Shown here: positions 4,213 through 58,008 of the stretch, piece after piece
Position numbering within the stretch: position 1 is the first letter of the stretch
Layout of the letters: the number at the start of each line of letters is the position of its first letter
DNA from: an uncultured Gammaproteobacteria bacterium
GTDB taxonomy: Bacteria; Patescibacteriota; Microgenomatia; Daviesbacterales; UBA10151
DNA: 64,000 bases
NCBI GenBank assembly: GCA_964394855.1
Contig: CAYMZD010000003.1
Location: 22,607 to 86,606 of the forward strand
Direction of reading: 5' to 3'
Made by a program: the position numbers and the translations under genes
Notes under the pieces: generated by a model
What the model was told of the DNA's origin: nothing
Seen by the model: only the letters and a program-made list of their open reading frames with translations
Database searches by the model: none

Positions 4213-4216
4213 ACTG

Positions 4217-4290
4217 TGCACGCGTCTGGATTCGAACCAGAGACCTCTTGCGTGTGATGCAAGCGCTCTAACCGACTGAGCTACGCATGC
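4217..4290 (-). tRNA. tRNA-Val (anticodon CAC), 74 nt, no encoded CCA
   Basis: Hand-folded cloverleaf on the minus strand. Acceptor GCATGCG/CGCGTGC with one G-U pair, D-arm GCTC-AGTCGGTTA-GAGC, anticodon stem CTTGC/GCAAG with loop ATCACAC, T-arm TCTGG-TTCGAAT-CCAGA, discriminator A. Confidence 0.85.
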
Positions 4291-4304
4291 TCTGATTAAA
4301 TAAC

Positions 4305-4333
4305 ATTCTAGCATTACTACTATTGCATCTCAA
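4305..4333 (-). promoter_or_regulatory. Candidate sigma70-like promoter for tRNA-Val: -35 TTGAGA, 17-nt spacer, -10 TAGAAT
   Basis: Read by eye on the minus strand. The -10 ends about 14 nt upstream of the mature tRNA 5' end. It lies in the 68-bp divergent intergenic region shared with lepB. Confidence 0.25.
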
Positions 4334-11659: not shown

Positions 11660-12940
11660 TTAAGGAAGCAGTGACTTAACCCAATCAATACCTTTTTGTA
11701 TCACGGATTTTAAAGGCAGACTTCTTACTAACATTGGTATTTTTAACTCTTTCCCTGAAGCTCCGCTGCTACCATAAAGAATCAAACCTGCTGCTGTAGC
11801 AAAACTAGGGGAATCAATCTCATCAACCAATCCAGATAATCCTACTGCATTGCCTATTCTAGCAGGAAAACCAATCACATATTTTGCTTGATCTAACAAA
11901 CCGACAGTCAGAGCACCCCCTCCGCAAATTACCAACCCAGAAGGGATCTGTGCCCCAAATCCACTTTTTTTAATCTCCTTTAAAACAAACTTAAATATTT
12001 CTTGCAACCTTGGTCTAATAACACCTTCAACAGCAGCTTTGGTAGAAATTTTTTGAATATCTTCAATGATACCAAGAGCTTTGACTTCAATGATATTTTC
12101 TTCCTTTTTCTTTTGGGAATCAGACTCCTCACTTAAAACCGCACTTTTAATCTGTTTACTAAGGTGTACTTTTATTTTTTCTGCTGATTCCAAGGACACT
12201 CGGAGCCCTACTGCCAAATCAGAAGTGACATGCCTAGCTCCTATGGGTATCACCGCAGAGTAGGCCACTGAACCATCAACATATATCACCACATCTGTTG
12301 TTTCCCCACCAATATCTACTAACACCACCCCCAACTCTTTTTCCGTATCAGTCAAAACAGCCAGAGACGAAGCCACCCCAGCAGACACTAGTTCAGTTAC
12401 ATCTATACCAACTTCAGAAACCACTTTTACTAAATTCCTCATGGCAGTACTGGAACCAGTAATTATATGTGTATCTGTTTCCAGTCTCACGCCCGTCATA
12501 CCAATTGGATCTCGGATACCTTCTTGACCATCAACAGTAAAAGTGCGCGGGATAACATGTAATATTTCTCGAGAAGAAGGCAGCGGTAATGCTCTGGCAG
12601 CCTCATTCACCCTTAAAACATCACTTTCTTTTATCTCTCCCTCTGGTTCAGAAACCGCCACCACCGCATGTTGATTAATGCTTTCAATTTGCGGGCCTCC
12701 CAGTGACACAAAAGCGGAAGAGATCGAATACCCCGCCATTCTTTCAGCAGCTTCAACAGATTCTGTGATTGCTTCAACAACCTCTTCAATATCAACCACC
12801 TGGCCCTTCCTAACTCCCTTGGAGGAAGTGGCAGAAACACCAATAAGATTTATTTTGCCATCTTCTTCAATATTGGCTATGAGAGTGGCTATCTTAGATG
12901 AACCTACATCTATTCCACAAACTACTTTATCCCTGGCCAC
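11660..12940 (-). CDS. ftsA: Cell division protein FtsA (actin-like ATPase)
   Basis: N-terminal GIDVGSSKIATLIA (phosphate-1), the actin-fold motifs DIGGETTD and GGGA, and a C-terminal amphipathic tail. Confidence 0.9.
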   Translation of the reverse strand: MARDKVVCGIDVGSSKIATLIANIEEDGKINLIGVSATSSKGVRKGQVVDIEEVVEAITESVEAAERMAGYSISSAFVSLGGPQIESINQHAVVAVSEPEGEIKESDVLRVNEAARALPLPSSREILHVIPRTFTVDGQEGIRDPIGMTGVRLETDTHIITGSSTAMRNLVKVVSEVGIDVTELVSAGVASSLAVLTDTEKELGVVLVDIGGETTDVVIYVDGSVAYSAVIPIGARHVTSDLAVGLRVSLESAEKIKVHLSKQIKSAVLSEESDSQKKKEENIIEVKALGIIEDIQKISTKAAVEGVIRPRLQEIFKFVLKEIKKSGFGAQIPSGLVICGGGALTVGLLDQAKYVIGFPARIGNAVGLSGLVDEIDSPSFATAAGLILYGSSGASGKELKIPMLVRSLPLKSVIQKGIDWVKSLLP

Positions 12941-12968: not shown

Positions 12969-13718
12969 TTATTTAGCAACATATTTAATAATAGGTCTGC
13001 TGTAGCGCAGATCTATAAACTCCACTTCTTCTTTTATTTTAGCTTCTGTAAGGATCAGTTGTAAAGATGCCAGTTGAAAATCCGGGGACGCTTCGAGAGA
13101 AAAGTATATTTTGGGGTTTGCATCAATAAATAGCATCGTTTGTGAGTAAATTTTGGCTTCTTTAATTTCCATACCCATCCTTTTCAGCTTATTTAAAATA
13201 TTGATGGCGTTTTTCACAACCCCTTCATCTAATTTAGACCCTAAAGTTAAATCCTGTGCTGTCAAGTAAATTTTTGGCACACTGATATTTGGTAAATTTT
13301 TAGAAAAAATAATGCCATCCTCGTCAACCACCAAACCGGCTGCAGAAGAGCTCTCCTCTGATTTTGAGATGATTAGTAGAGCCTGGGGAGTGCGAGTATT
13401 TGCATCAATAATTAAACCATTGGGAGGTTTTCTAGAAAGTTTCACCTCCTTTAAACATAAAAACTTTTGCCTAAGATTACTTCTCATGGCTCCTATATCA
13501 ACAAAGAAAATGTTTTTACCTGCAGCCTCTGATATTTTTTTTATATCCTCCTCACTCGTACAATCTTTTTTATCCAAATTTACCTGAATATTTTTAATTT
13601 CAAAAAATTTTGAATCGAAGAATAAATAACCATCAATAATTAAAAATAAAATTACTAGAGAGAGGCTTAATCTCCATAAATTGGAAAGCAGCTGATTGCT
13701 TTTTCTTTTTTTCACCAT
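12969..13718 (-). CDS. ftsQ: FtsQ/DivIB-like cell division protein (single N-terminal TM plus POTRA-like domain)
   Basis: Supported by position between murG and ftsA, a single TM (LSLSLVILFLIIDGYLFF), and its size. Sequence similarity is weak, so the call rests mostly on synteny. Confidence 0.55.
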   Translation of the reverse strand: MVKKRKSNQLLSNLWRLSLSLVILFLIIDGYLFFDSKFFEIKNIQVNLDKKDCTSEEDIKKISEAAGKNIFFVDIGAMRSNLRQKFLCLKEVKLSRKPPNGLIIDANTRTPQALLIISKSEESSSAAGLVVDEDGIIFSKNLPNISVPKIYLTAQDLTLGSKLDEGVVKNAINILNKLKRMGMEIKEAKIYSQTMLFIDANPKIYFSLEASPDFQLASLQLILTEAKIKEEVEFIDLRYSRPIIKYVAK

Positions 13719-13745: not shown

Positions 13746-14828
13746 CTAAAAGGTGTGGTCTTTTAAGATGATGGTCTCCAGGGCCAGTCTTTTGGCAGCA
13801 TCAGGGATAATCAACTTTTTGGCCGCTTTAGCAGCCGATTTATATTGATCTAAATTTTTAATCATGTCTTGGATATTTTTATAAAGTGTCTCCGGAGAAA
13901 GTTTGGATTGAGGCAAAACTTTGACCATACCAATCGCTTTAAAAAAAAGAGCATTTTTTTGTTGTTCATCTTGATAAAGATAAGGTACTGGTATTAAAAG
14001 TGCTGGTTTCTCCAGAAAGGCTAGTTCAGTCAGAGTGTTAATACCAGCTCTAGATACCACTAAATCAGATTGAACCATTACTTGACCCATCTCTTCAATA
14101 AATTTTTTTACTTCATACTTATCACAGGATCTGGCTTTTAATCTTTCAAAATCCTTAAATTTTGAATCTCCAGTTAGATGAATAATTGTGGCGATTTTGG
14201 TCAGCTTCTCCAGGCTTTCTTCAACTGCCAAATTAATCACATGGGAGCCCTGATTACCACCGGTAATTAAAATACGGGGCAACCCCCCTTTCTCTCGCAT
14301 CATGCTCGCAGCCTGTTTGATCTCACCTCGTATCGGATTACCAGTCAACACTACTTTCTCCTTGCCAAAAGATTTATTTTCACTAAATGCAATAGCTACC
14401 TTATCCGCAAAAAAACTACTTATTTTATTGGCCAACCCCGACACCAAAGTTTGATCGTGAATGATAATAGGGATGGAAAAAAACCAACTCACCACTACTA
14501 TTGGTACTGCCACATAGCCTCCGAAAGATAACACCACATCGGGTTTCTCCTGTAAAATTATCCACCAAGCTTGAACCAAACCAATGGGAATTTTAAGAAG
14601 TGCGGGGATAGTATAGATGGTGAACGTTCTCTGCAGTCTACCTGCTATAATGGGGATAAACTTTACCCCCAGTTTTGGTAAAACCTGTGATTCAACAGAT
14701 TGACTAGGGTCACCTTCACGGGTAGTTTTTCTCCCCACATAGATAATTTGTAGATTTTTATACTTCTTGAGCTCTTCAATAACTGCCAAAGCAGTAGTAA
14801 AATGAGCTCCTGTCATTAGTATTTTCAT
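13746..14828 (-). CDS. murG: Undecaprenyldiphospho-muramoylpentapeptide beta-N-acetylglucosaminyltransferase MurG
   Basis: Start MKILMTGAHFTTALAV (G-loop). C-terminal GGNQGSHVIN matches the MurG GGSQGA motif region. GT28 architecture. Start chosen at M13 of the track ORF. Confidence 0.85.
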   Translation of the reverse strand: MKILMTGAHFTTALAVIEELKKYKNLQIIYVGRKTTREGDPSQSVESQVLPKLGVKFIPIIAGRLQRTFTIYTIPALLKIPIGLVQAWWIILQEKPDVVLSFGGYVAVPIVVVSWFFSIPIIIHDQTLVSGLANKISSFFADKVAIAFSENKSFGKEKVVLTGNPIRGEIKQAASMMREKGGLPRILITGGNQGSHVINLAVEESLEKLTKIATIIHLTGDSKFKDFERLKARSCDKYEVKKFIEEMGQVMVQSDLVVSRAGINTLTELAFLEKPALLIPVPYLYQDEQQKNALFFKAIGMVKVLPQSKLSPETLYKNIQDMIKNLDQYKSAAKAAKKLIIPDAAKRLALETIILKDHTF

Positions 14829-14829
14829 C

Positions 14830-15921
14830 TTATGTTTGTTTCGAGATGTTAAATAATATCCCAATTGCAGCCAAATTTACCACCAGAGCAGAACCACCAT
14901 AGGAGATAAATGGTAGGGGAACACCTGTCAAGGGTAAGAGGGAGGAGATAGCCCCCAGATTAACTATGGCCTGTATCCCCAGCCACAGAGTTAATCCCGA
15001 AGCTAAAATTTTACCAAATTGATCAGTGGTCTTGTCTGCTATTTTAAAACCTCTAATGACAAGAGCAATAAAAAGAGCAATTAAGAGCATAGAACCTAAA
15101 AATCCCAGCTCTTCTCCAATTACAGCAAAAATCGAATCAGTTGTGACTTCGGGAAGATAATATTTTTGTCTAGACTGTCCCAATCCCAGTCCAAAAAGTC
15201 CACCTGTACCAAGGGCAATTAAAATCTGTGAAATATGGTAGGAAAATCCTTGTGGATCTGAAAAAGGGTCTAAAAAAGCCAAGACTCTTTTTCTGCGATA
15301 TTCTGAAAAAATTACCAGTAATAAAAAAGCTGCCACAGCTACTGGCAAGCTTAAAACTATCCTCCATAGTGATCCTCCTGCAATAATATATAAGCCCAAT
15401 GAAGTAGCCACAAAGACAGCAGTCGAACCCAAATCTTTTTGCAAAAAGCCCATGATAAATCCGACTATTAAAATCAGTCCCAACAAAGGTTTAAGCCTGG
15501 CTCCTTTATCAAAAATAGCCGAAAGCCAAAGCACAGCTGATAATTTAAAAACCTCTGCTGGTTGAATAGTCAAAAAATTAAGATTCAACCATCTGTGAGC
15601 TCCTCCCGCTGATGTACCTATTCCCGGTATAAAAACCGCCAGAAGAAGCAGTACTGAACCTGCTAATGCCAAAAAAGAAATACTTCTTAATTTATGGTAA
15701 TCAAAATTGGCAAAAAAAATTGCCACCAACACCCCCAAAACCATCCAAATGAGCTGCCATCTAATGTAGTAAAAACTATCACCAAAATCCCGATAAGCTT
15801 GTATAACAGAAGCATCATAAACAGATACCAAACCAAAAATGACCAACATGGAAACTACGAGGATAAGCGGGATATCAAAAGTTCTCTTTTGTGGATTTAG
15901 GTACGTTTTATTGAGCCTCAT
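14830..15921 (-). CDS. ftsW: SEDS-family lipid II flippase/polymerase FtsW
   Basis: Polytopic with C-terminal SEDS motifs. Located between mraY and murG. The ATG at 15921-15919 makes an ATGA overlap with the mraY stop. The track's GTG at 16008 would overlap mraY by 91 nt. Confidence 0.8.
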   Translation of the reverse strand: MRLNKTYLNPQKRTFDIPLILVVSMLVIFGLVSVYDASVIQAYRDFGDSFYYIRWQLIWMVLGVLVAIFFANFDYHKLRSISFLALAGSVLLLLAVFIPGIGTSAGGAHRWLNLNFLTIQPAEVFKLSAVLWLSAIFDKGARLKPLLGLILIVGFIMGFLQKDLGSTAVFVATSLGLYIIAGGSLWRIVLSLPVAVAAFLLLVIFSEYRRKRVLAFLDPFSDPQGFSYHISQILIALGTGGLFGLGLGQSRQKYYLPEVTTDSIFAVIGEELGFLGSMLLIALFIALVIRGFKIADKTTDQFGKILASGLTLWLGIQAIVNLGAISSLLPLTGVPLPFISYGGSALVVNLAAIGILFNISKQT

Positions 15922-16949
15922 CGCGAAAGTAAAGCTAACCAGAGCCCAAAAATAGCAAACATTGCTCCAGCCAACCAAAATCTGGTTACTATTTTTGGTT
16001 CTTCCCACCCGATATATTTAAAATACATATGTATTGGGGCTACAGGGAAAGCTTTTCTCCTCAAAAATCTTTTGGAAATCATCTGGATGGCAGAACTTAA
16101 GACAATTATGACATAAACTCCACCAATAATTGTCAATGCTAAAACTTTACCTGTTAAAAGTCCCACCACGGCCAGTGTAGCCCCAAAGGCTAAAGCACCA
16201 GCGTCTCCCAAATAGATTCTGGCTGGCCACACATTAAAATAAAGATAAGCAAATAAAGCTCCAATCCAGATACCAATAAAACTAGCCAGTGTTAAATTAA
16301 GTGAAGTTGTCGCCAGAGCAAGTAGAGCAAATAGACAAATAACTAAAAGCCCAGTTGATAATCCATCTAAACCATCAGAGATATTATAGGCATTGGAGAA
16401 GGAGACAATGATAAATGCTGCTATCGGAATATACCAAACCCCAATAATAAAATTTCCCAAACCAGATATATAAATATTATTAAGTCCAATCATTCTATAA
16501 AGCATAAATGCCACCAAAAAAGCAAAAATTATCTGCAAGATTAGGATAAACCTTCCTTTTATCCCCGCATATTTTCCACTAAAAGCTGTAAAGATTTTTC
16601 TGATATCATCCATCAGTCCTATGATAGCAAATGAAATAAAAGTGAATAAGATAATAAATAAATAGTCCGGACCGTCTAAACTATTATAACTATAAAAAGA
16701 AGTATTGATGATAGTTAAAATAGTAATAAGTATTATTAGTAGTATTCCTCCTCCCACTGGAGTATCCACGTCTTTCCCAGCTAGCAGCTTATTATGAATA
16801 GGGGTGGTGCTGTCATCATAGCCTTTGGGAATTGGTTTTTTATACTTCCTTCTTAAAATAAAAAGCAAATTAATAAAAGGAACCATAAAAAAACTGGTCA
16901 CCAAAAAAGAAAGCAGAACCAGTCCTAAAAGTTGACTTAATGGATTCAT
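15918..16949 (-). CDS. mraY: Phospho-N-acetylmuramoyl-pentapeptide transferase MraY
   Basis: NAYNISDGLDGL (MraY DGxDGL motif), ten TM helices, and an ATGA overlap with the upstream gene. Confidence 0.9.
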   Translation of the reverse strand: MNPLSQLLGLVLLSFLVTSFFMVPFINLLFILRRKYKKPIPKGYDDSTTPIHNKLLAGKDVDTPVGGGILLIILITILTIINTSFYSYNSLDGPDYLFIILFTFISFAIIGLMDDIRKIFTAFSGKYAGIKGRFILILQIIFAFLVAFMLYRMIGLNNIYISGLGNFIIGVWYIPIAAFIIVSFSNAYNISDGLDGLSTGLLVICLFALLALATTSLNLTLASFIGIWIGALFAYLYFNVWPARIYLGDAGALAFGATLAVVGLLTGKVLALTIIGGVYVIIVLSSAIQMISKRFLRRKAFPVAPIHMYFKYIGWEEPKIVTRFWLAGAMFAIFGLWLALLSR

Positions 16950-18022
16950 ATTTTTTTAATAATTCGTTTGACAACCTCGTCTAATCTAACTGACTTTGCT
17001 CCTTTAACCAAACAAACATCTCCTTTTACCAACACCTTTAAAAGTTTAGACACCATTTGCGGATTTTGCAAATTAGCTTCCATCTTTTCTGTTAAAAAAC
17101 CTAGTCTTTTTAACTCATCAGCTATAATATTGGCTGCTCCTACTCCCAAAAAAACTAGATCTACTTTTTCTCTATATATTTTTTGAGCTATTTTTCTGTG
17201 TAAGATCTCTGTATCTATATTGTCATCTTTCATCTCTCCAAAACATAAAATCCGTCTTCTGACAGATAACTGCTGCAGCGTATCAATCGCACCTTCAACA
17301 GATAAATAGGTGCCCTCACCCAGATCATCCAAAACCACAGCACCATTAAATCCTGGTAAAACTTGCAGTTCATTTTCCTGTTGGGGAATTTTCTCCAGGT
17401 AATTCTTAATAGCAATCAGTGAAATTCCTTCGTTTAAAGCCAAGGCACTGGCTGCTAAAATTGAGTAAATATGATGTTCACCTAAAATAGGAAGTTTTAT
17501 TTTTACCCTCTCTACTCCATAATTAATTTCAAACGAGGAATTAAAATCCTCAATTTTTAGATTACTAAGCCAAACCTGGCAATTTTCACTATCCTGACCA
17601 AAATAAATAACTCTGGCTTTTGAGTTATCAGCTAATTTTCTCACTGCCAAATCATCATAATTTAAAATTACCAACCCATCATTTGATAATGTACTCGAAA
17701 TTCTATTTATTTCACTGATTATCTTCTTACCAGCTAAAGTCAAACTACTCACAATAATAACATTGGGAGTAATGTTCTCCCATGAATTATCCATATGGTC
17801 TTTCTTTTGATTTAAATCCAAGATTATTCTTCCCTTTTTAGGTCTTATAGCCCACAATTTAATTCCTGGTTTGGTAGTAATGACTGAATATTTTTTAGAC
17901 AGAATGTGCTGCAGCGTCAGTATGATAGTTTTGCTAAAATTACCGACCACACCAATAAAAACTTCTTGGGGAATAATTTTGATATATTGTTTGCCAATAA
18001 AAGATAAAAATGGAATTTCCAA
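16946..18022 (-). CDS. Mur ligase family protein, MurF-like by position, with no N-terminal domain and a degenerate P-loop
   Basis: Central-domain end ILGEHHIYSILAASALAL and the C-terminal domain (GEGTYLSVEGAIDTL ... LGVGAANIIADEL) look Mur-ligase-like. The ATP P-loop reads GVVGNFSKT instead of the usual GxTGTNGKTT. Confidence 0.5.
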   Translation of the reverse strand: MEIPFLSFIGKQYIKIIPQEVFIGVVGNFSKTIILTLQHILSKKYSVITTKPGIKLWAIRPKKGRIILDLNQKKDHMDNSWENITPNVIIVSSLTLAGKKIISEINRISSTLSNDGLVILNYDDLAVRKLADNSKARVIYFGQDSENCQVWLSNLKIEDFNSSFEINYGVERVKIKLPILGEHHIYSILAASALALNEGISLIAIKNYLEKIPQQENELQVLPGFNGAVVLDDLGEGTYLSVEGAIDTLQQLSVRRRILCFGEMKDDNIDTEILHRKIAQKIYREKVDLVFLGVGAANIIADELKRLGFLTEKMEANLQNPQMVSKLLKVLVKGDVCLVKGAKSVRLDEVVKRIIKKI

Positions 18023-18023
18023 A

Positions 18024-19283
18024 TTAAGCCTCTCTTTTTATATTAACACCCAATTTAGTAAGTTTTTCGACAACGTTTTCATAACCTCTTTCTATTAACT
18101 CTGCTTTGTGAATAGTGCTTTTTCCGGATGCCACCGCTGCCGCCAATACTAAAGCCATACCAGCCCTTATATCAGGACTTTCTAAATCGCGTCCTTTAAG
18201 TTTAGATGGACCATACACTAAAACTCGGTGGGGATCGGCAATAGTAATATCTGCCCCCATGGCAATTAACTTATCAACAAAAAACATTCTACTTTCATAT
18301 ATCCAGTCATGGCATAAAGTGATGCCTTTACTTTGAGTAGCCAAAACAATGGTAGGACTCATCATATCAGTGGGAAAACCAGGCCAAAGACCTGTTACAA
18401 TTTTCTTCGGGGAAGTGAGTTTTTGCCCAGAGAAAATAAATTTACCATCCTTAAATTCAGCCTTAAGGCCAAATCTCTTAAGAGGTTCTATAACAGGATC
18501 AGCATCTATCCCACTTGCGCCACTTACCACAACTTTTCCAGAAGTCATGGCTGCGGCAATAGCATAGACGCCCATTTCCAGATGATCCCCAGATAAGCAA
18601 AATTTCGTTCCAGACAGTTTTTTAACCCCCTCTATCATCAAGTTTGTTGTTCCCACCCCCGAAATATTTGCACCCATAGATATTAAAAGTCGGCACAAAT
18701 CAACAACATGCGGATCAGCAGCGCAGTTTCTGATATGGACTTTACCAGGATATAAAACAGAGGCTAAAATTAAATTTTCCGTACCAGTCACAGAAGTTAT
18801 GTTTTGGAAAATATGGCAAATTCTCTTTGACATGGATTTTTGGGGATAGCCAACAGTAAAATACAAATCGTCTTGAGTGATCTTTGCTCCAAGAGTAGCA
18901 AAACCATCAAGATGAACTTCAAAACTTCTTCTGCCAATGATATCTCCTCCGGGATAATGGAACTTGACCCTTCCAAGTCTTGACAGTAACGGCCCGACCA
19001 AAACAATTGAACCCCTTAGCTTTACTACCAAATCATCAGGCAGGCTTGATTTTAAATTGGCTGATTTTAAACTAACTGCTCCGTTTCTCCTTAAAACTTT
19101 TACCCCAATTTTTTCTAGAATTTGTAGCAAAATATCCGTGTCTTTAATCTCGGGGATATTTTCTAAAATAACCTCATCTTCTGTTAAAAGTGCTGCCGCC
19201 ATACAGGGAAAAATGGAATTTTTATTACCAGATATTGTTACTTTCCCCAGTAGGGAATTGCCACCTTCAATAATATATTTCAT
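18024..19283 (-). CDS. murA: UDP-N-acetylglucosamine 1-carboxyvinyltransferase MurA
   Basis: MKYIIEGGNSLLGKVTISGNKNSIFPCMAAAL is the canonical MurA N-terminus. Two-domain EPT fold, 419 aa. Confidence 0.9.
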   Translation of the reverse strand: MKYIIEGGNSLLGKVTISGNKNSIFPCMAAALLTEDEVILENIPEIKDTDILLQILEKIGVKVLRRNGAVSLKSANLKSSLPDDLVVKLRGSIVLVGPLLSRLGRVKFHYPGGDIIGRRSFEVHLDGFATLGAKITQDDLYFTVGYPQKSMSKRICHIFQNITSVTGTENLILASVLYPGKVHIRNCAADPHVVDLCRLLISMGANISGVGTTNLMIEGVKKLSGTKFCLSGDHLEMGVYAIAAAMTSGKVVVSGASGIDADPVIEPLKRFGLKAEFKDGKFIFSGQKLTSPKKIVTGLWPGFPTDMMSPTIVLATQSKGITLCHDWIYESRMFFVDKLIAMGADITIADPHRVLVYGPSKLKGRDLESPDIRAGMALVLAAAVASGKSTIHKAELIERGYENVVEKLTKLGVNIKREA

Positions 19284-19284
19284 G

Positions 19285-19863
19285 TTAAATTCTCGCCTTA
19301 AATCGAAATACAGCAGATAAAATCAAGTGCTTACTTAACTTAAGATCCTCGGGGGCGATCTGTTCAATTTCTCCATTTTCTAAGACTTTGATAGTTTTTA
19401 CTTTTGACTGAAGTAATTTATTTAAAAATAAATTCCCTCCAACCGTACCCGGAAGTCCCTTAATTTCATCAGTTTGTAAACCTTGCTTATTTAAAAATTC
19501 CCATAGCCTGTTAATACTTACTCCTGAATCAACCTCTATCAAAGCTTCATCAACTCCTAAAGATTTTTGAGCCACCTTACCTTTAATACCCACTATATTC
19601 ATGTGTTGAGTTCTGTTTTTAACCACCAGTCCATCAAAACCTTGATCAGCAATAACAATCTTACTGCCAGAACCTATCACCAAATAAGGAACAGTCAGTT
19701 GTTCTGCCATTTGGACAATTTTAGCAAGTTCATGAGTAGTAAAAGCCACGAAAAAAATTTTAGATGGACCACCCAAAGCTACTGTTGTATGGTTGGCCAG
19801 GGGTTCGTCCATTTTGAAACGATCCCTGCCAAATGAACTAATAAGTAAGTTTAGTTTATCCAT
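19285..19863 (-). CDS. murB: UDP-N-acetylenolpyruvoylglucosamine reductase MurB, short form: FAD-binding domain only, 192 aa
   Basis: LANHTTVALGGPSKIFFVAFT, GSGSKIVIADQGFDGLVV and GLPGTVGGNLFLN match the MurB FAD-binding half. The ORF ends 1 nt before the murA start, so the roughly 100-aa C-terminal substrate-binding part is absent. Confidence 0.6.
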   Translation of the reverse strand: MDKLNLLISSFGRDRFKMDEPLANHTTVALGGPSKIFFVAFTTHELAKIVQMAEQLTVPYLVIGSGSKIVIADQGFDGLVVKNRTQHMNIVGIKGKVAQKSLGVDEALIEVDSGVSINRLWEFLNKQGLQTDEIKGLPGTVGGNLFLNKLLQSKVKTIKVLENGEIEQIAPEDLKLSKHLILSAVFRFKARI

Positions 19864-21070
19864 TCTTCAACGCATCCTCACAAGCTTTTCTATCAGACCA
19901 AGGCAACTCTTTCTTGCCATCTAAATTAATAGACTTTTCATGACCTTTACCAAAAATTCCCACCGTATCACCCTTTTTAGCTAAAATATTAATGGCAAAA
20001 TCAATGGCTTTTTTTCTATCATCAATTATATAAAAATTCACCCCCTCTTTGGCTCCGGCTTTTTTTGCCCCTTTTTTAATTTGCTGGTTGATAGCTTTAA
20101 GTTCTCCTCTTGGATCAACAGCGGTCAGAATTACCATATCAGAAAGTTGCTGGGCTATTTTTCCCATCATCCACCGCTTTTTAATATCCCTCTGGCCTTC
20201 TGCCCCGGTAATGGTAATCAGCTTCCCTGATGGAGTTTGTGTTCGCAGGGCCATAAGAGCTTTTTCTAAACCATTAGGTGTGTGAGCGAAATCAATGATA
20301 ATCCTTAAACCATTATTATTTTTTACCCCTTCCATTCTACCTGTTAACCCTTTAAATTGCAGCAGGGATTTGACTACCCGTCTTTGATCAACCCCCAAAT
20401 AAGTAGTGGTTGCCAAAGCAGCTAGGGCATTTTCAATATTGTAATCTCCTGGTACTTGTAACTTAATCCTTAAATCTTGTTGATTAACATCACCTCTTTC
20501 TAACCCAAAGGTAATTATCTTAGCCAATAACTTACCCGATCGTTTAACATATTGGTTAAGGTTGCAATTGATAATGGCTACCCTTACACCCTTCAATAGT
20601 TTTAATTTAGTTTTGATGTAACTGGTTTTGGTCCGATGATAATCTAGGTGTTCATGAGTAATATTGGTAATCACTCCCACCTTAAATTTCACCCCCCAAA
20701 ACCTGAATTGATCCAAGCCGTGAGAGGTTACTTCCAAAATTAAATATTCATCTCCATGATCTAATGCTTGCTTGGTCAATTTCTGTACCACAAAAGGATC
20801 AGGAGAGGTCACATGAAAGCCTGTATCGTAGGATTTTCCAGCAATTTCCGCATTGATAGTTGAAACTAGAGAAACCTTTTTACCAGCATCCTTTAAAATC
20901 TGGTAAATCATATTAACTGTAGTAGTTTTACCATCTGTACCGGTCACCCCGATTACTGCTAAATCTTTTGACGGGAAGCCATAAAAAATATTGGCCAAAA
21001 AGGCCTTGGGCAAATGCCAAAAATAATTTATCATCCATTGAGATAAAAACCGCCTTAATAATTTTTTCAT
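19856..21070 (-). CDS. murE: Mur ligase, MurE-like (UDP-MurNAc-L-Ala-D-Glu:diamino acid ligase), lacking the N-terminal domain
   Basis: P-loop GVTGTDGKTTT sits only 37 aa from the N-terminus. C-terminal TAVDPRGE (DNPR-like, DAP-type specificity motif) and GKGHE are present. Confidence 0.65.
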   Translation of the reverse strand: MKKLLRRFLSQWMINYFWHLPKAFLANIFYGFPSKDLAVIGVTGTDGKTTTVNMIYQILKDAGKKVSLVSTINAEIAGKSYDTGFHVTSPDPFVVQKLTKQALDHGDEYLILEVTSHGLDQFRFWGVKFKVGVITNITHEHLDYHRTKTSYIKTKLKLLKGVRVAIINCNLNQYVKRSGKLLAKIITFGLERGDVNQQDLRIKLQVPGDYNIENALAALATTTYLGVDQRRVVKSLLQFKGLTGRMEGVKNNNGLRIIIDFAHTPNGLEKALMALRTQTPSGKLITITGAEGQRDIKKRWMMGKIAQQLSDMVILTAVDPRGELKAINQQIKKGAKKAGAKEGVNFYIIDDRKKAIDFAINILAKKGDTVGIFGKGHEKSINLDGKKELPWSDRKACEDALKNG

Positions 21071-21084
21071 TGAAGCTAATTATA

Positions 21085-22788
21085 TCATTGTGCCTCTGTT
21101 GGAGCTATTCTGTAATAAGTAAAAAGCTCTTTGGCTATTTCAAAAAAGGTGGGAGCGGCTGTTTCTGAACCAAAGATTGAAACCGAGGGTTGGTTATAAA
21201 GCACTAAGATGACAAACTTGGGACTATCGGCCGGGGCAAATCCCACAAATGAGGCGATGGTTTTATTGGGATCATAATGACCAGCCACGGGAATTTGGGC
21301 AGTCCCAGTTTTACCAGCAATCTTAAAACCTTTTGGCTTGGCCCATTTAGCCTCACCCTCATCCACAGCCTTTACCATCATCTCTGTTAAAACTTTAGCA
21401 GCTTCTTCGCTGATAACTCTTCTGATAAATTTGGGCTTAATTTCAAATCTTTTATTGTCATCTTCTATGGCTTTTACTACTTGAGGTTGCATCAAATTCC
21501 CACCACTAGCTAGTGAAGCCACTGCAGCCACCATTTGAATGGGAGTAACTGCAATTCCTTGACCAAATGAGCTTGTAGCCAAATCTATCTCTCTCCAGCT
21601 TTCTTTAGATCGAAGATTTGGTGAAAACTCATCTTGTAAATCAATACCTGTTTCTTGACCAAATCCAAAATCTACCAGATAAGAATAAAGTTTATCCAAT
21701 CCTAACTTTCTTGATACAAAAACCATACCGGTATTATCAGAATGTATGATAGTTTCCTCCATGGTAGTTTCTGGATAATACTTATTATTCCAAGTTCTAA
21801 TAGTAAAACCACCAATTTGTACCGCTTCAGCGCAACTATCACATTTTGTATCTGGCTTGATAATATGTTCGTTTAAGGCAGCCGCCATCACCAAAACCTT
21901 AAAAATGGAACCAGGCTCAAAACTATCAGCCACAATGGAATTTTTATAATATTCCTTGGCAAACTGGCTGAAATTAGCTGGATCATAATTAGGATAGGTA
22001 GCCAAAGCCAACACAGCTCCTGTTTTAGGATCTAAAACCACAGCCGAAGCACCTTTAGCCTCATACTTTTCAAATCCTTTTCTTAAAGCCTTCTCTACAA
22101 TATATTGCACAGCTCTATCAATATTTAGTATTAAATTTTTACCATCTTTGCCAAAATTGCCAAATGATTGACCAATTAAAATAGGCAGCCCAGCTGCATC
22201 TTTTTCCTGTCTGATGTTACCTGCCATGCCCTTGAGTTCTCCGTTATAAAAACCTTCTAAACCAAAATATCCCGTATCTTCACCTTTGGAGTTACTGGCC
22301 ACAAATCCCAGCAAATGGGCCGCACTGGAGCCTTCTGGGTAAAAACGACTATTTTCTTTTTCAAAGCCTAATCCTTTTATTTTAAGGCTCTCTATTTTCT
22401 TTTTTATTTCCAGCTCAACATTTCTTTGAAGAACCACCCAATATAAATCCTCTGACAATTTATCTTTAAGCTCTCTGCTCAAGCTTAATTCTTCTTCTTC
22501 TTCTTCTGTCAAGATTTTAGCTAATTTTGTGGCCACATTAGATTTATCCTCCTCTTTAAATAATTTTGGTAAACCATAAAGAAGGTATGTCGGCTTTGAA
22601 GAAACTAAAATGAAATTATCTGAAAATAAAATATCGCCTCTTTTGGCTTGAGTTTTTAAATCTTGAAAATGTTGGTTTTCAGCTTTGGCAGACAGTTCAT
22701 CTGCCATAACTACCTGCCAGTAAAAAAGGCGCGCTAAAACAGTTAAAAAGAGTAGAATCAGGAAAATCCTAGTAAATTTAATACGCAT
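21085..22788 (-). CDS. ftsI: Penicillin-binding protein, class B transpeptidase (FtsI/PBP3-like)
   Basis: N-terminal TM, SxxK (SIFK), SxN (HSDN) and KTG (KTGTAQ). Confidence 0.85.
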   Translation of the reverse strand: MRIKFTRIFLILLFLTVLARLFYWQVVMADELSAKAENQHFQDLKTQAKRGDILFSDNFILVSSKPTYLLYGLPKLFKEEDKSNVATKLAKILTEEEEEELSLSRELKDKLSEDLYWVVLQRNVELEIKKKIESLKIKGLGFEKENSRFYPEGSSAAHLLGFVASNSKGEDTGYFGLEGFYNGELKGMAGNIRQEKDAAGLPILIGQSFGNFGKDGKNLILNIDRAVQYIVEKALRKGFEKYEAKGASAVVLDPKTGAVLALATYPNYDPANFSQFAKEYYKNSIVADSFEPGSIFKVLVMAAALNEHIIKPDTKCDSCAEAVQIGGFTIRTWNNKYYPETTMEETIIHSDNTGMVFVSRKLGLDKLYSYLVDFGFGQETGIDLQDEFSPNLRSKESWREIDLATSSFGQGIAVTPIQMVAAVASLASGGNLMQPQVVKAIEDDNKRFEIKPKFIRRVISEEAAKVLTEMMVKAVDEGEAKWAKPKGFKIAGKTGTAQIPVAGHYDPNKTIASFVGFAPADSPKFVILVLYNQPSVSIFGSETAAPTFFEIAKELFTYYRIAPTEAQ

Positions 22789-23051
22789 TAACGAATATAT
22801 TGTATGATTTTGGGAGCAGTAAATCCAATATCAGCAGATTGGCTAGCTATTCTGGTAATGGCAGCGGCAGAAGCTATCTCATTTTCTAACAGCTGATTCT
22901 CCAAATTTAAGTTTTGTCGGAGATTTTCTATATCATTCATCTGTTCTCCCAAACTCACTGTAGTGTGAGAAACCCAGATTTCTATTACCACCAGTACCAA
23001 TAAAAAAAAGCTGATAAAAATTATTATTTTTTTGCTTCCCCAAATGCTCAT
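22788..23051 (-). CDS. ftsL: FtsL/DivIC-like septal protein (single TM plus coiled coil)
   Basis: 87 aa, with TM IIIFISFFLLVLVVIEIWV followed by a leucine-rich heptad region. Position between rsmH and ftsI. ATGA overlap with rsmH. Confidence 0.5.
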   Translation of the reverse strand: MSIWGSKKIIIFISFFLLVLVVIEIWVSHTTVSLGEQMNDIENLRQNLNLENQLLENEIASAAAITRIASQSADIGFTAPKIIQYIR

Positions 23052-23917
23052 ATCTTGGCAAAAATTCTTAATTTGGCCGATCTTGACCCTTGATTGGCCA
23101 CCATCTCCTTTGTAGAAGGAGTGATCGGCTTTTTGGTTAAAATCTCTCCTAGCTTAAGATCTTGCCAAGATTTAAATTGCTTTTTAACTATTCTATCTTC
23201 CAGAGAATGAAAACTAATGACCACTAGCTTACCACTTGTTTTTAACAAATCAAGTGCTTGCGGCAGCGCTTCTTCCAGCGCATTTAGTTCATCATTAACA
23301 GCAATACGCAGAGCTTGAAACACTTTAGTAGCTGGATGGATTTTTCCATGCCTACCTTTAATCCTTTCTACGATACTGGCTAACTCTGTAGTTTTGTGTA
23401 TTGGTTTCACCGAACGGGCGAGAACCACAGCAGCAGAAATGGCTTTAGCAAATCCTTCTTCACCCAGTTTAGTAAATAGTTCATATAACTCTCCTTTATT
23501 TAAACCATTAACAAGATCCATTGCTTTGACTGGTAATTTCAAATCCATCCTCATATCTAATGGTCCATTTTTAGAAAAGGAAAAACCTCTTTTGGAACTG
23601 TCCAGTTGCCAAGTTGATACTCCCAAGTCAAATAAAATACCAGCAAATTTTTTGTTGACTAATTTTTTCAGGTTTCTAAAGTTCCCTGCTACTTGTTTAA
23701 ACCTCTGACCCCCAAGTCTTAACTTTCTAAATCTGGTGCTAGTTCTTGCTACCGCCTCCAGGTCTATATCTAAACCAATAACGTTTCCTTTACTCTTTAA
23801 GATTTCCAGTGAGTGGCCGCCATCTCCCAAAGTAGCATCCAAATACCACCTACCAGGTTTTATATCTAGAGCTTGCACGACCTCTTTCAGAAGAACGGGC
23901 TTATGATAATCTACCAT
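23048..23917 (-). CDS. rsmH: 16S rRNA (cytosine1402-N4)-methyltransferase RsmH (MraW)
   Basis: MVDYHKPVLLKEVVQAL ... DATLGDGGHS is the RsmH signature. Start chosen at M23 of the track ORF, which leaves a 17-nt overlap with mraZ. Confidence 0.85.
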   Translation of the reverse strand: MVDYHKPVLLKEVVQALDIKPGRWYLDATLGDGGHSLEILKSKGNVIGLDIDLEAVARTSTRFRKLRLGGQRFKQVAGNFRNLKKLVNKKFAGILFDLGVSTWQLDSSKRGFSFSKNGPLDMRMDLKLPVKAMDLVNGLNKGELYELFTKLGEEGFAKAISAAVVLARSVKPIHKTTELASIVERIKGRHGKIHPATKVFQALRIAVNDELNALEEALPQALDLLKTSGKLVVISFHSLEDRIVKKQFKSWQDLKLGEILTKKPITPSTKEMVANQGSRSAKLRIFAKI

Positions 23918-24311
23918 ACCTTTGTTTGATTTTAGCAAGTTCTCTACCCCATAATCTAGCGTCCCAGATTTCAAAATGATCACCAGCGCCTACTATGACC
24001 GCTTCTTTCTTCACCCGCGCGAAAGTCAGCAGGGCCGACGGAACCACAAACCTACCTTGAGTGTCTAACTCCACTGACTCGCTACCTGAAAACAAATATC
24101 TTCTTAAATTTCTGGCCCGTTCTTCTGTGGCAGAAACCTCTATTTGCTTTTTGGCTAATTCCTCAAAACCCTCTTTACTAAAACCCCAGATACAACCCTC
24201 AAAACCACGACTTAGGACAATCTCTTTACCAGCTAGCTCATCTCTTAACTTCCTGGGTAGAATTAACCTTCCCTTACCTGTAAAATTGGTGTAATATTCG
24301 CCCAAAAACAT
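23901..24311 (-). CDS. mraZ: Transcriptional regulator MraZ
   Basis: MFLGEYYTNFTGKGRLILPRKLRDEL shows the duplicated MraZ/SpoVT-AbrB fold. The start was moved to M4, where the RBS GGAAGG lies 9 nt upstream. The track ATG at 24320 directly abuts the RBS. Confidence 0.85.
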   Translation of the reverse strand: MFLGEYYTNFTGKGRLILPRKLRDELAGKEIVLSRGFEGCIWGFSKEGFEELAKKQIEVSATEERARNLRRYLFSGSESVELDTQGRFVVPSALLTFARVKKEAVIVGAGDHFEIWDARLWGRELAKIKQRYGRLS

Positions 24312-24340
24312 GAAGGACATCCTTCCTGATTGGGCAGATT

Positions 24341-24403: not shown

Positions 24404-25279
24404 TTAAGGATTAGAAAGAGTTAACACTGCAAAAATTCCTGATCCATCAGTAGAACCGGAAAGTTTTCCTTCTTCCCCTTTTGATTCCATTTCCAGCCAT
24501 TTGTTATCTTTTTCCGAAAATCTGGCTAGTTTAGCATCAGCTGGGGGATTTTCAGCCAGTTCAATACTCACTTGTCCACCCTTTAACTCCTTAGCCAAAG
24601 GTACATTTAAACTATAAACTTTACCCAAAACCTCCCTACCTTCTGGTAGTTTAGGTAGACCTGTTAAATCATTAATAATGGTGTATCCAGTTAACGCCAA
24701 TTCCGATCTATCAGCTTTGACAAAGTATTTAAAGTGGCCATCGCCCGAACTTAAAACTCCCAAAGCTACATCTGGCCGCTGCAAATGCCATTGAGTGATC
24801 ATTTTCAAAGCCCTGGCACCTTTTTTAATATGTAAAGTTAATGTACCATTTTCCACATCCTTATCATATTTACACACATTTTTAGAGCAGGTCCCCAAAA
24901 GTATTTCTTGTTCATATTCTCCCTTTTTTACCTTAGTATCAATGCTTCCCACCACTCCACGATCAATTCCTTCTGCATTATAAGCCAGCTCATAGGAAAT
25001 GGTATCATAAGAAGAAGTACGCTTTAAGCTTAGAATCAAAGCATTGCCATCACGGCGAGGAATAAGTACCGCATAAGGTCCTTCTGCATCAAAAGAAATT
25101 TCATTTTCTTCTACAACTTGACTGGAAGAACCACTAAATTTTTGAAAAAAAGAAAATCCACCAAAGAAAATTAATAAAACTGCCAATAATAAGCTTAAAG
25201 TAATTTTGTTTTTAGCATAAATATTTAATAATCTGGGCAGAAAATTATTCACTTTGTGCTTTTGCCCATGGTGGGCCAA
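24404..25279 (-). CDS. Hypothetical membrane-anchored (signal-anchor) extracytoplasmic protein
   Basis: One N-terminal TM (ITLSLLLAVLLIFFGGFSFF), then a roughly 240-aa soluble domain rich in beta-type residues. No recognisable catalytic motifs. Confidence 0.45.
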   Translation of the reverse strand: MAHHGQKHKVNNFLPRLLNIYAKNKITLSLLLAVLLIFFGGFSFFQKFSGSSSQVVEENEISFDAEGPYAVLIPRRDGNALILSLKRTSSYDTISYELAYNAEGIDRGVVGSIDTKVKKGEYEQEILLGTCSKNVCKYDKDVENGTLTLHIKKGARALKMITQWHLQRPDVALGVLSSGDGHFKYFVKADRSELALTGYTIINDLTGLPKLPEGREVLGKVYSLNVPLAKELKGGQVSIELAENPPADAKLARFSEKDNKWLEMESKGEEGKLSGSTDGSGIFAVLTLSNP

Positions 25280-53308: not shown

Positions 53309-53319
53309 GAAAATATTTT

Positions 53320-53955: not shown

Positions 53956-53956
53956 C

Positions 53957-55405: not shown

Positions 55406-55414
55406 TTTAATATT

Positions 55415-58006: not shown

Positions 58007-58008
58007 GA

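What the first reader, a model, noticed from the sequence alone, without database searches (positions are those of the whole stretch)
13746..24311. Non-canonical dcw cluster: murA and a short murB are inside it, while murC, murD and ddl are absent
The order here is mraZ-rsmH-ftsL-ftsI-murE-murB-murA-murF(like)-mraY-ftsW-murG-ftsQ-ftsA-ftsZ. The canonical cluster has murD between mraY and ftsW and murC-murB-ddl after murG. Here murD, murC and ddl are missing from the cluster, and murA, usually encoded elsewhere, is inserted. Both Mur ligases present lack the N-terminal substrate-binding domain. Either the missing steps are encoded elsewhere or the organism makes a reduced or atypical peptidoglycan precursor.
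Basis: partly seen in the sequence, partly recalled or inferred. Interest (0 to 1): 0.55.

Follow-up and report, generated by a model that had tools for sequence, protein, structure and literature searches.

The report
Streamlined cell-wall gene cluster of Daviesbacteria
This is the standard cell-division and cell-wall operon of a group of tiny uncultured bacteria (Daviesbacteria-like CPR). Several wall-precursor enzymes in it have been cut down to partial domains, and one has lost its catalytic residues, but I could not test whether the three genes missing from the cluster are missing from the genome.

Summary
On the minus strand, 24320 to 10373 reads mraZ-rsmH-ftsL-ftsI-murE-murB(short)-murA-murF(like)-mraY-ftsW-murG-ftsQ-ftsA-ftsZ. 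No murC, murD, ddl or MurB C-domain occurs anywhere in the 64 kb.

It is not an artefact or a one-off. About 75 contigs of Candidatus Daviesbacteria (Microgenomatia, CPR) carry the same order and the same short proteins. These proteins evolve under purifying selection, with dN/dS of roughly 0.15, like the neighbouring genes.

- **MurE:** it lacks domain 1 but keeps every catalytic motif. MurE without domain 1 is a large, diverse family.
- **MurB-short:** about 194 aa, containing only the FAD domain. It lacks Arg159, Ser229, Glu325 and the whole substrate domain.
- **MurF-like family:** a true MurF without domain 1. The copy in this window has lost the P-loop, Mg-Glu, His, DDxYN and GEMxELG motifs. 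It is probably a non-catalytic derivative.

murA and murB belong to the ancestral 17-gene dcw cluster, so murA is not an oddity here.

I could not test whether murC, murD, ddl or a full-length murB lie elsewhere. The intact MurE, MurA, MraY, MurG and FtsI make that likely. My verdict is a new variant of a known kind, of moderate interest.

The parts
23901..24320 (-). mraZ
   Evidence: PF02381, 101 bits
23048..23983 (-). rsmH (mraW) 16S rRNA methyltransferase
   Evidence: PF01795, 317 bits. The ORF maximum overlaps mraZ, so the true start is probably further downstream.
22788..23051 (-). ftsL-like small bitopic protein
   Evidence: Weak PF04999 match, E 0.0017, below the cut-off. Conserved at this position in all relatives.
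21085..22788 (-). ftsI, class B PBP
   Evidence: PBP_dimer plus Transpeptidase domains. SIFK(294), SDN(350) and KTG(493) are intact.
19856..21070 (-). murE lacking the N-terminal (UDP-binding) domain 1; catalytic motifs intact
   Evidence: TIGR01085 351.7 bits, above the 257.3 cut-off, matched from about model position 90. Aligns to 4bub from residue 88. GTDGKTT, LEVTSH, TNITHEHLDYH, KTK, DFAHTP and DPRGE are conserved in 39 relatives.
19285..19863 (-). short MurB: a stand-alone FAD-binding (PCMH) domain derived from MurB, without the substrate domain or catalytic residues
   Evidence: PF01565 only; NF010480 88 bits against a 259 cut-off. A family of 243 clusters, whose best 120 are 188-214 aa long. 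Alignment to full MurB. AF2 pLDDT 88, with top Foldseek hits MurB 3tx1/4pyt/1hsk at TMq about 0.8 and TMt about 0.5. dN/dS about 0.15.
18024..19283 (-). murA, full length, Asp in place of Cys115
   Evidence: TIGR01072 425.5 bits, above the 392.7 cut-off. PGGD in 120 of 120 relatives.
16946..18022 (-). MurF-derived protein lacking domain 1 and, in this genome, all ATP-binding and catalytic motifs (probable pseudoenzyme)
   Evidence: TIGR01143 115 bits against a 288.6 cut-off. Relatives P0051 and P0002 score 285 and 277 bits. Motif comparison. AF2 pLDDT 87.8, with best Foldseek hits MurF 4cvk/4qf5/3zl8. The identical protein is on the three Logan contigs shown; the protein database counts four contigs and an NCBI source for it.
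15918..16949 (-). mraY
   Evidence: TIGR00445 172 bits against a 192 cut-off. DD and NAYNISDGLDG motifs present.
14830..16008 (-). ftsW (SEDS)
   Evidence: TIGR02614 347 bits, above the 337.5 cut-off.
13746..14864 (-). murG
   Evidence: TIGR01133 226.8 bits against a 250 cut-off.
12969..13718 (-). ftsQ
   Evidence: POTRA_1 29.2 bits, above the 23 cut-off.
11660..12940 (-). ftsA
   Evidence: TIGR01174 387 bits.
10373..11512 (-). ftsZ
   Evidence: The translation carries the GGGTGTG tubulin signature. Orthologues in relatives carry Tubulin plus FtsZ_C.
24404..25279 (-). conserved membrane-anchored protein of unknown function, always immediately upstream of mraZ in this lineage
   Evidence: No Pfam match. 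One transmembrane segment. Present at this position wherever a fetched locus reaches that far upstream. Mean column identity 68%.

Best explanation
The region is the lineage-typical dcw (division and cell wall) operon of a Daviesbacteria-like member of the Microgenomatia (CPR/Patescibacteria).

What it encodes (shown by sequence):
- the complete membrane and periplasmic part of peptidoglycan synthesis (MraY, MurG, FtsW, FtsI), with catalytic motifs checked in MraY and FtsI
- the divisome (FtsL, FtsQ, FtsA, FtsZ)
- a trimmed set of cytoplasmic enzymes: a normal MurA, a MurE without domain 1 that keeps all catalytic motifs, a MurB reduced to its FAD-binding domain, and a MurF without domain 1

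Inferred steps:
- The steps not in the cluster (MurC, MurD, Ddl, and probably a catalytically competent MurB activity) are most likely encoded at unlinked loci. An intact, selected MurE and MurA would otherwise have no substrate or no use.
- The short MurB is a functional flavoprotein module. It cannot reduce enolpyruvyl-UDP-GlcNAc by the known mechanism on its own. It therefore works either with a partner that supplies substrate binding or as an accessory to a full-length MurB.
- In this genome, and in a minority of relatives, the MurF-derived protein has lost ATP binding and catalysis but is retained. It probably serves as a non-catalytic scaffold within the Mur/MraY/MurG assembly. D-Ala-D-Ala addition would then be done by another enzyme.
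For: - **Identity and order of genes:**
- **Same order and same short proteins elsewhere:** 40 Daviesbacteria species genomes and 34 metagenome contigs. murA is absent from the cluster in only a few of them (L035 = CP066688.1, L041, L119).
- **Purifying selection:** rough median dN/dS is 0.15 for MurB-short, 0.12 for MurF, 0.15 for MurE, 0.15 for MurA and 0.11 for MraY.
- **MurE:** motifs intact. MurE without domain 1 is common; 43 of the top 60 representatives at 50% identity have this form.
- **MurF family:** it keeps G[ST]xGK[TS] in 104 of 120 members, together with LEMG, AHxE, DDxYNxxP and LGEMxELG. It scores 277-285 bits on TIGR01143. The window copy has lost all of these motifs yet folds as MurF.
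- **Degenerate MurF subgroup:** a roughly 349-aa subgroup is more conserved between two genomes (74% identity, dN/dS 0.11) than MurA (67%) or MurG (63%).
- **MurB-short:** it is MurB-derived by sequence and by fold. It lacks Arg159, Tyr190, Lys217, Ser229, Asn233 and Glu325. It keeps the GxGS and PGxxGG FAD-binding motifs as invariant residues.
- **FtsI and MraY:** catalytic motifs intact.
- **Literature:** murA and murB are part of the 17-gene ancestral dcw cluster (PMC8871954). A complete Microgenomates genome is reported to have an essentially complete peptidoglycan pathway (PMC7143001).
Against: - No murC, murD, ddl or full-length murB was actually seen in any genome of this lineage. They are absent from the 64-kb window and from about 8-10 kb on either side of the cluster in some 75 relatives. 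No whole genome could be scanned.
- If a full-length MurB exists, it is unclear why a catalytically stripped paralogue is kept at this position under selection.
- If this genome's MurF-like protein is inactive, a second MurF must be postulated, and none was observed.
- dS is near saturation (about 1.7), so the dN/dS values are rough.
Confidence: 0.6

Rival explanations
1. Reduced or scavenging pathway. The lineage truly lacks MurC, MurD, Ddl and a competent MurB, and in some members MurF. It builds its wall from host-derived muropeptides or precursors. The ligases without domain 1 would act on substrates that are not recognised through UDP.
For: - The missing genes are absent from the window and from all flanks examined.
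- Both ligases lack the UDP-binding domain.
- MurB-short lacks all catalytic residues.
- MurF has become degenerate repeatedly within the lineage: 16 of 120 copies, in several separate places in the tree. This is the pattern expected when a step becomes dispensable.
- From general knowledge, CPR bacteria are episymbionts with minimal biosynthesis.
Against: - MurA (425 bits, 57-67% identical among relatives) and MurE are intact and selected. This makes little sense without MurB, MurC and MurD activities.
- 104 of 120 MurF copies keep all ligase motifs, which implies a D-Ala-D-Ala supply.
- FtsI keeps its DD-transpeptidase motifs.
- Published surveys report essentially complete peptidoglycan pathways in CPR, including a complete Microgenomates genome (PMC7143001; PMC12114108).
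Confidence: 0.15
2. The short MurB is the only MurB and is catalytically competent in a new way. The FAD module would dock on MurA, or on another cluster protein, which would hold the enolpyruvyl-UDP-GlcNAc. Alternatively, the lineage-specific extended hairpin with invariant KNRT...KGK residues would replace domain 3.
For: - It is always encoded beside murE and, in nearly all genomes, directly upstream of murA. In this window its start overlaps the murE stop by 8 nt.
- FAD motifs are invariant, as are the basic residues K82, N83, R84, T85, K94, G95 and K96.
- Its selection is as strong as on MurA.
- MurA needs a MurB activity.
Against: - Every residue known to bind substrate or to protonate the intermediate is missing.
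- I know of no precedent for a MurB lacking domain 3.
- In CP066688.1, L041 and L119 murA is not adjacent.
- No structural test of docking was possible.
Confidence: 0.2
3. Artefact or decay. The short genes would be frameshifted or truncated pseudogenes, or assembly errors.
For: The proteins are shorter than the curated family models and fall below the NCBIfam cut-offs.
Against: - The identical MurF-like protein is encoded on three separately assembled Logan contigs; the protein database counts four contigs and an NCBI source for it.
- Lengths are fixed across hundreds of clusters: mode 194 aa for MurB-short and 398-400 aa for MurF.
- dN/dS is about 0.1-0.15.
- AF2 models are confident.
- There are no remnants of the missing domains in any frame.
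Confidence: 0.02

Closest known systems
Canonical bacterial dcw cluster (E. coli 15 genes; inferred ancestral 17-gene form including murA and murB)
   Same: It starts with mraZ-rsmH-ftsL-ftsI, ends with ftsQ-ftsA-ftsZ, and has murE-murF-mraY...ftsW-murG in the middle. All genes are on one strand and tightly packed.
   Different: murD, murC and ddl are absent. murB(short)-murA lie between murE and murF instead of after murG. Three of the cytoplasmic enzymes are domain-truncated.
MurB, UDP-N-acetylenolpyruvoylglucosamine reductase (for example S. aureus 1HSK, L. monocytogenes 3TX1, E. coli 1MBB)
   Same: It is the best sequence and fold match. The PCMH FAD-binding domain and its GxGS and PGxxGG motifs are shared, and the gene sits in a dcw context next to murA.
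   Different: It has only about 194 aa. The whole C-terminal substrate domain is missing, together with Ser229, Asn233, Lys217 and Glu325. The loops carrying Arg159 and Tyr190 are deleted. A hairpin with invariant basic residues is extended.
MurE (closest solved structure: Thermotoga maritima MurE, 4BUB)
   Same: The central ATPase and C-terminal domains are shared. So are the P-loop, the carbamylated-Lys position, and the DxPR-type motif. It scores above the TIGR01085 cut-off.
   Different: It lacks the roughly 90-aa N-terminal domain that binds the UDP moiety, having about 35 residues in its place. The same form occurs in many CPR-type representatives.
Two-domain members of the Mur-ligase superfamily without domain 1 (MurT, FolC/FPGS, CapB/PgsB); comparison from general knowledge
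   Same: The architecture is the central ATPase domain plus the C-terminal domain only. These families show the fold can work without the UDP-binding domain.
   Different: Those families act on non-UDP substrates. Here the sequences are clear MurE and MurF orthologues.
PAP11 / MurE-like subunit of the plastid-encoded RNA polymerase (8R5O, 8QMA)
   Same: It is a Mur-ligase fold retained as a structural subunit rather than a ligase. It is a precedent for the degenerate MurF-like protein, and it appears among the hits.
   Different: It comes from a different lineage and has a different partner complex. That it is non-catalytic in flowering plants is from general knowledge and was not tested here.

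Membership tests
dcw gene cluster | mraZ-rsmH at the head, ftsL-ftsI, mur genes with mraY, ftsW and murG, then ftsQ-ftsA-ftsZ at the tail, co-oriented and contiguous | tested here: met
dcw gene cluster | contains murD (between mraY and ftsW) and murC(-murB)-ddl (after murG) | tested here: not met
   None in the window or in about 75 related loci. Positive control.
MurE (TIGR01085) | score above the curated cut-off; P-loop, Glu/His Mg sites, carbamylated Lys, C-terminal DxPR motif | tested here: met
   351.7 bits, above 257.3. Motifs.
MurE (TIGR01085) | three-domain architecture with the N-terminal UDP-binding domain | tested here: not met
   The match starts at model position about 90 and at 4bub residue 88. 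ftsI ends 14 nt upstream.
MurF (TIGR01143) | score above the curated cut-off | tested here: not met
   115 bits against 288.6 for the window copy. Relatives score 277-285 bits.
MurF (TIGR01143) | ATP-binding P-loop GxxGK[TS], Mg-binding Glu and His, and the DDxYNANP-type and GDMxELG-type motifs | tested here: not met
   The window copy reads GNFSKT, LDLN, His motif deleted, DDLGEGTY and FGEMKDDN. 104 of 120 relatives keep the canonical forms.
MurF (TIGR01143) | MurF fold (central plus C-terminal domains) | tested here: met
   AF2 pLDDT 87.8. Best Foldseek hits are MurF 4cvk, 4qf5 and 3zl8, with TMq up to 0.82.
MurB (TIGR00179 / NF010480) | FAD-binding PCMH domain | tested here: met
   PF01565 43 bits. 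Foldseek top 12 hits are all MurB, with TMq 0.68-0.80.
MurB (TIGR00179 / NF010480) | C-terminal substrate-binding domain (PF02873) with Ser229 and Glu325, plus Arg159; score above the cut-off | tested here: not met
   88 bits against 259 and 54 against 144.5. The alignment ends at the last strand of the FAD domain. No remnant in any frame.
MurB (TIGR00179 / NF010480) | NADPH-dependent reduction of enolpyruvyl-UDP-GlcNAc | not testable with these tools
   Needs an enzyme assay or complementation.
MurA (TIGR01072) | score above the cut-off, full length | tested here: met
   425.5 bits, above 392.7. Asp replaces Cys115.
Complete Mur pathway in the genome | murC, murD, ddl (and alr, murI) present somewhere in the genome | not testable with these tools
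   Only 64 kb of this genome and about 8-10 kb flanks of relatives were readable. Genome-wide scans were not possible.

The most novel reading that the evidence does not exclude
A whole CPR lineage may have rebuilt the cytoplasmic half of peptidoglycan precursor synthesis. It would have no MurC, MurD, Ddl or canonical MurB anywhere in the genome. MurE and MurF would no longer recognise UDP. A stand-alone FAD module would replace MurB. MurF would be turning into a scaffold. The stem peptide would then be assembled on, or salvaged as, something other than the textbook UDP-MurNAc intermediates, for example host-derived muropeptides.
Probability: 0.12. Interest if true: 0.85.

Novelty: new variant of a known kind. 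Interest (0 to 1): 0.48.

Why it matters
The Mur pathway is treated as near-invariant and is a major antibiotic target. This lineage conserves, under selection, a MurB without its substrate domain and catalytic residues. It also conserves MurE and MurF without their UDP-binding domain, and MurF copies that have lost ATP binding. This gives natural minimal versions of these enzymes. They can be used to test which parts are really needed and whether the Mur enzymes work as a complex in which missing parts are supplied by partners. If the missing genes prove absent genome-wide, it would show how ultra-small episymbiotic bacteria obtain a cell wall with a reduced pathway.

Tried and rejected
1. 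**Finding the source genome.** The exact proteins are on an NCBI contig of 164,314 bp and on Logan contigs. Only short Logan contigs were retrievable, and the genome is not in the GTDB-representative collection.

2. **Finding murC, murD or ddl elsewhere in relatives.** The genome and metagenome scans return only 8-10 kb flanks. I hoped the MurA search would locate the unlinked murA of the complete genome CP066688.1 through its contig length. That protein was not among the 120 hits listed, so the attempt was uninformative.

3. **A hidden Ddl upstream of mraZ.** The conserved 291-aa gene there is a membrane-anchored protein, not an ATP-grasp enzyme.

4. **Literature.** Nine searches and several papers turned up no description of short MurB, of MurE or MurF without domain 1, or of degenerate MurF in CPR. 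Megrian et al. 2022 is not held.

5. **A split MurB.** No separate C-domain ORF or fusion was found in about 75 loci, and no remnant was found in the window.

7. **A single origin for MurF degeneration.** A neighbour-joining tree groups the window copy with the roughly 349-aa degenerate subgroup. Identities of the other genes show no special affinity, so this may be long-branch attraction.

Full report
**What is there.** The window has about 36% GC, and nearly all of its genes, including the whole cluster, lie on the minus strand. From 24320 down to 10373 the ORFs are tightly packed. Pfam and NCBIfam identify them as mraZ, rsmH, a small FtsL-like protein, ftsI, murE, a 192-aa MurB-like protein, murA, a 358-aa MurF-like protein, mraY, ftsW, murG, ftsQ, ftsA and ftsZ. 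The rest of the window holds an IleRS-type tRNA synthetase, a second SEDS protein, ParB, signal peptidase, a class II tRNA synthetase, RecO, a DUF4012 protein and a very large glycosyltransferase/PMT_2 region. This content is typical of CPR bacteria.

No murC, murD, ddl, alr, murI or MurB C-terminal domain exists in the 64 kb. That holds for the Pfam scan of every ORF of at least 100 aa. It also holds for tblastn of all six frames with E. coli, Pelagibacter and CPR MurC, MurD and MurB queries and with E. coli and Pelagibacter Ddl queries. The catalytic residues of the typed MurB fall at the published positions.

**The truncations are real.**
- **MurE (404 aa):** it passes the TIGR01085 cut-off but matches only from about model position 90. 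It aligns to T. maritima MurE (4bub) only from residue 88. ftsI ends 14 nt upstream, so the missing domain has no room.
- **MurF-like:** it matches TIGR01143 only from position 139 and scores 115 bits against a cut-off of 288.6.
- **MurB-like:** it has only the FAD_binding_4 domain.

**It is a lineage trait, not an accident.**
- The identical MurF-like protein is encoded on three separately assembled Logan contigs. The protein database counts four contigs and an NCBI source for it.
- The short MurB belongs to a family of 243 clusters. The best 120 are 188-214 aa long, with a mode of 194.
- The MurF-like family has 186 clusters, mostly 398-400 aa, and is named MurF in Daviesbacteria and Patescibacteria MAGs.
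- A scan of one genome per GTDB species found the short MurB in 40 genomes. Most are titled Candidatus Daviesbacteria or Patescibacteria/Microgenomates group. The rest carry generic 'uncultured Gammaproteobacteria' titles that I take to be mislabelled.
- A JGI metagenome scan added 34 contigs.

Wherever a fetched locus is long enough, the order is DUF4012-RecO-tRNA synthetase-(conserved membrane protein)-mraZ-rsmH-ftsL-ftsI-murE(~400)-murB(~194)-murA(~419)-murF(~398)-mraY-ftsW-murG-ftsQ-ftsA-ftsZ-IleRS. murA is missing from the cluster in only three of the loci: CP066688.1, L041 and L119. No MurC, MurD, Ddl or MurB C-domain lies within 8-10 kb of the short murB in any of them.

This window's organism is 45-80% identical to these relatives, depending on the protein. 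It is not itself in the genome collection.

**Selection.** Nei-Gojobori estimates across the 40 genome loci give median dN/dS of 0.15 for MurB-short, 0.12 for MurF, 0.15 for MurE, 0.15 for MurA, 0.11 for MraY, 0.17 for MurG and 0.05 for FtsZ. dS is close to saturation, so these numbers are rough. Even so, the truncated proteins clearly evolve like their essential neighbours, not like pseudogenes.

**MurE.** All motifs of an active Mur ligase are present and conserved in 39 relatives. These are GTDGKTT, LEVTSH, TNITHEHLDYH, the Lys aligned with the carbamylated lysine, DFAHTP and DPRGE. A full HMMER search of 1.84 billion cluster representatives shows that MurE without domain 1 is common. Among the 60 best representatives, 43 are 390-470 aa and match from their first 20 residues. 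The loss of domain 1 in MurE is therefore widespread, not special to this window.

Close MurE relatives also occur as fusions. The forms seen are MurE-MurC, MurE-MurC-MurB, MurE-MurD, MurC-MurD-MurE, and one MurE without domain 1 fused to MurC.

**MurF.** The family as a whole is a genuine MurF minus domain 1. Of 120 members, 104 keep G[ST]xGK[TS], and the family keeps LEMG, AHxE(F/Y)LG, DD(T/S)YNxxP and LGEM(R/K)ELG. Members such as P0051 and P0002 score 285 and 277 bits on TIGR01143, from model position 64.

The copy in this window is different. It reads GVVGNFSKTI, LDLN, has a 7-residue deletion that removes the His motif, and reads DDLGEGTY and FGEMKDDN. It still folds confidently as the central plus C-terminal domains of MurF. 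Its AF2 pLDDT is 87.8, and its best Foldseek matches are MurF structures with TMq up to 0.82.

Fifteen other members are also degenerate, at several places in a neighbour-joining tree. One subgroup of about 349 aa has a conserved replacement sequence, GxAGDWGRQE. Between two genomes of that subgroup the degenerate protein is 74% identical with dN/dS 0.11. That is better conserved than MurA (67%) or MurG (63%) in the same pair.

I infer that these are non-catalytic MurF derivatives kept for another role, most plausibly structural. A Mur-ligase fold serving as a structural subunit has a precedent in the plastid RNA-polymerase subunit PAP11, which appears among the hits.

**MurB-short.**
- **Origin:** it is MurB-derived. 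The best NCBIfam, PDB-sequence and Foldseek matches are all MurB.
- **Fold:** the AF2 model (pLDDT 88.3) covers the FAD-binding half of MurB, with TMq about 0.8 and TMt about 0.5.
- **What is missing:** alignment with full-length MurB shows that it stops just after the last strand of the FAD domain. It also has deletions over the AGAYG-E loop and over the loop that carries Arg159. Arg159, Tyr190, Lys217, Ser229, Asn233 and Glu325 are therefore all absent.
- **What is kept:** the FAD-binding GxGS and PGxxGG motifs are invariant. So is a set of basic residues, KNRT...KGK, in an extended hairpin.

It probably binds FAD, but it cannot be a stand-alone MurB by the known mechanism.

**What this means for the pathway.** MurA is full length and above the equivalog cut-off. 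It has Asp at the Cys115 position in all 120 relatives. The MraY motifs and the FtsI SxxK/SxN/KTG motifs are intact. An intact MurA needs a MurB activity. An intact MurE needs the MurC and MurD products. The canonical MurF of most relatives needs D-Ala-D-Ala.

The most economical reading is that the missing steps are encoded at unlinked loci. The literature reports essentially complete pathways in CPR, including a complete Microgenomates genome (PMC7143001; PMC12114108). Genes such as murC, murB and ddl are often outside the cluster in other phyla (PMC8871954). That paper also shows that murA and murB belong to the longest, inferred-ancestral 17-gene cluster, so murA inside the cluster is not exceptional.

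I could not verify the 'elsewhere' step. No tool allowed a whole Daviesbacteria genome to be read, and the indirect attempt through MurA failed.

**Verdict.** The cluster is the fixed, selected layout of a CPR lineage rather than an anomaly of this genome. The open alternative, a reduced or salvaged precursor, is neither shown nor excluded, and I give it about 0.15.

Three things are new relative to what I could find described:
- the conserved catalytic-residue-free MurB module
- the lineage-wide MurE and MurF without domain 1
- the recurrent conversion of MurF into a conserved non-catalytic protein, including in this window

I rate the finding a new variant of a known kind, with interest of about 0.5.

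Noticed in passing
window 24404-25279 (-): A 291-aa protein with one N-terminal transmembrane segment and an extracytoplasmic domain of about 250 aa. It has no Pfam match and lies immediately upstream of mraZ wherever a related locus reaches that far. It is more conserved (68% mean column identity, two invariant Cys) than the Mur enzymes. It may be an undescribed lineage-specific member of the dcw cluster.
   Followed up: partly
window 18024-19283 (-), MurA motif PGGD: MurA has Asp where E. coli has Cys115. All 120 closest relatives do too. From general knowledge, this is the naturally fosfomycin-insensitive type.
   Followed up: partly
L088 7310-8359; L089 1988-3040; proteins P0012, P0013, P0015, P0022, P0025, P0035, P0056: A subgroup of MurF-derived proteins of about 349 aa. 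The P-loop is replaced by a conserved GxAGDWGRQE and the His motif is deleted. The subgroup is under purifying selection (74% identity, dN/dS about 0.11 between two genomes). In L088 the adjacent MurE is only 359 aa.
   Followed up: partly
proteins P0243-P0245, P0278, P0296, P0340 (representatives): Close relatives of this MurE occur as fusion proteins. The forms are MurE-MurC, MurE-MurC-MurB (1251 aa), MurE-MurD, MurC-MurD-MurE (1330 aa), MurD-MurE, and a MurE without domain 1 fused to MurC. Some of these combinations are not among the five major chimera types listed in PMC10214165.
   Followed up: partly
window 6368-7444 (-) and 7431-10337 (-): A second SEDS protein (RodA-like) lies directly downstream of an IleRS-type synthetase, just after ftsZ. 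The same pairing is seen in the relative loci that reach that far (L004, L035). No cognate class B PBP is next to it.
   Followed up: no
window about 52000-60000: GC falls to about 0.31, against about 0.36-0.40 elsewhere, and gene orientation becomes mixed. The region holds PMT-type GT-C glycosyltransferases, methyltransferases, an 863-aa protein with an F5/8 type C domain, and a 482-aa ORF with only a sub-threshold PMT_2 match. An 859-aa ORF with no family match lies just upstream at 49315-51894. It may be an acquired or fast-evolving surface-glycosylation island.
   Followed up: no
window 61425-62690 (-): A diaminopimelate-decarboxylase-like gene (TIGR01048 257 bits, below the 298 cut-off) sits among sugar-modifying genes. 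If it is a true LysA, the cell handles meso-DAP, which bears on what MurE adds.
   Followed up: partly
window 3451-4314 (-) versus tRNA-Val 4216-4290 (-): A 287-aa ORF overlaps the only tRNA gene in the window (tRNA-Val, CAC), so its 5' part is probably not coding.
   Followed up: no
L035 / L004 (CP066688.1), L041, L119: In three of the related loci murA is not in the cluster, and murB-short is followed directly by murF. In CP066688.1 a PaaX_M-domain gene is inserted between ftsI and murE. I could not establish where murA lies in those genomes, or whether it exists there.
   Followed up: partly
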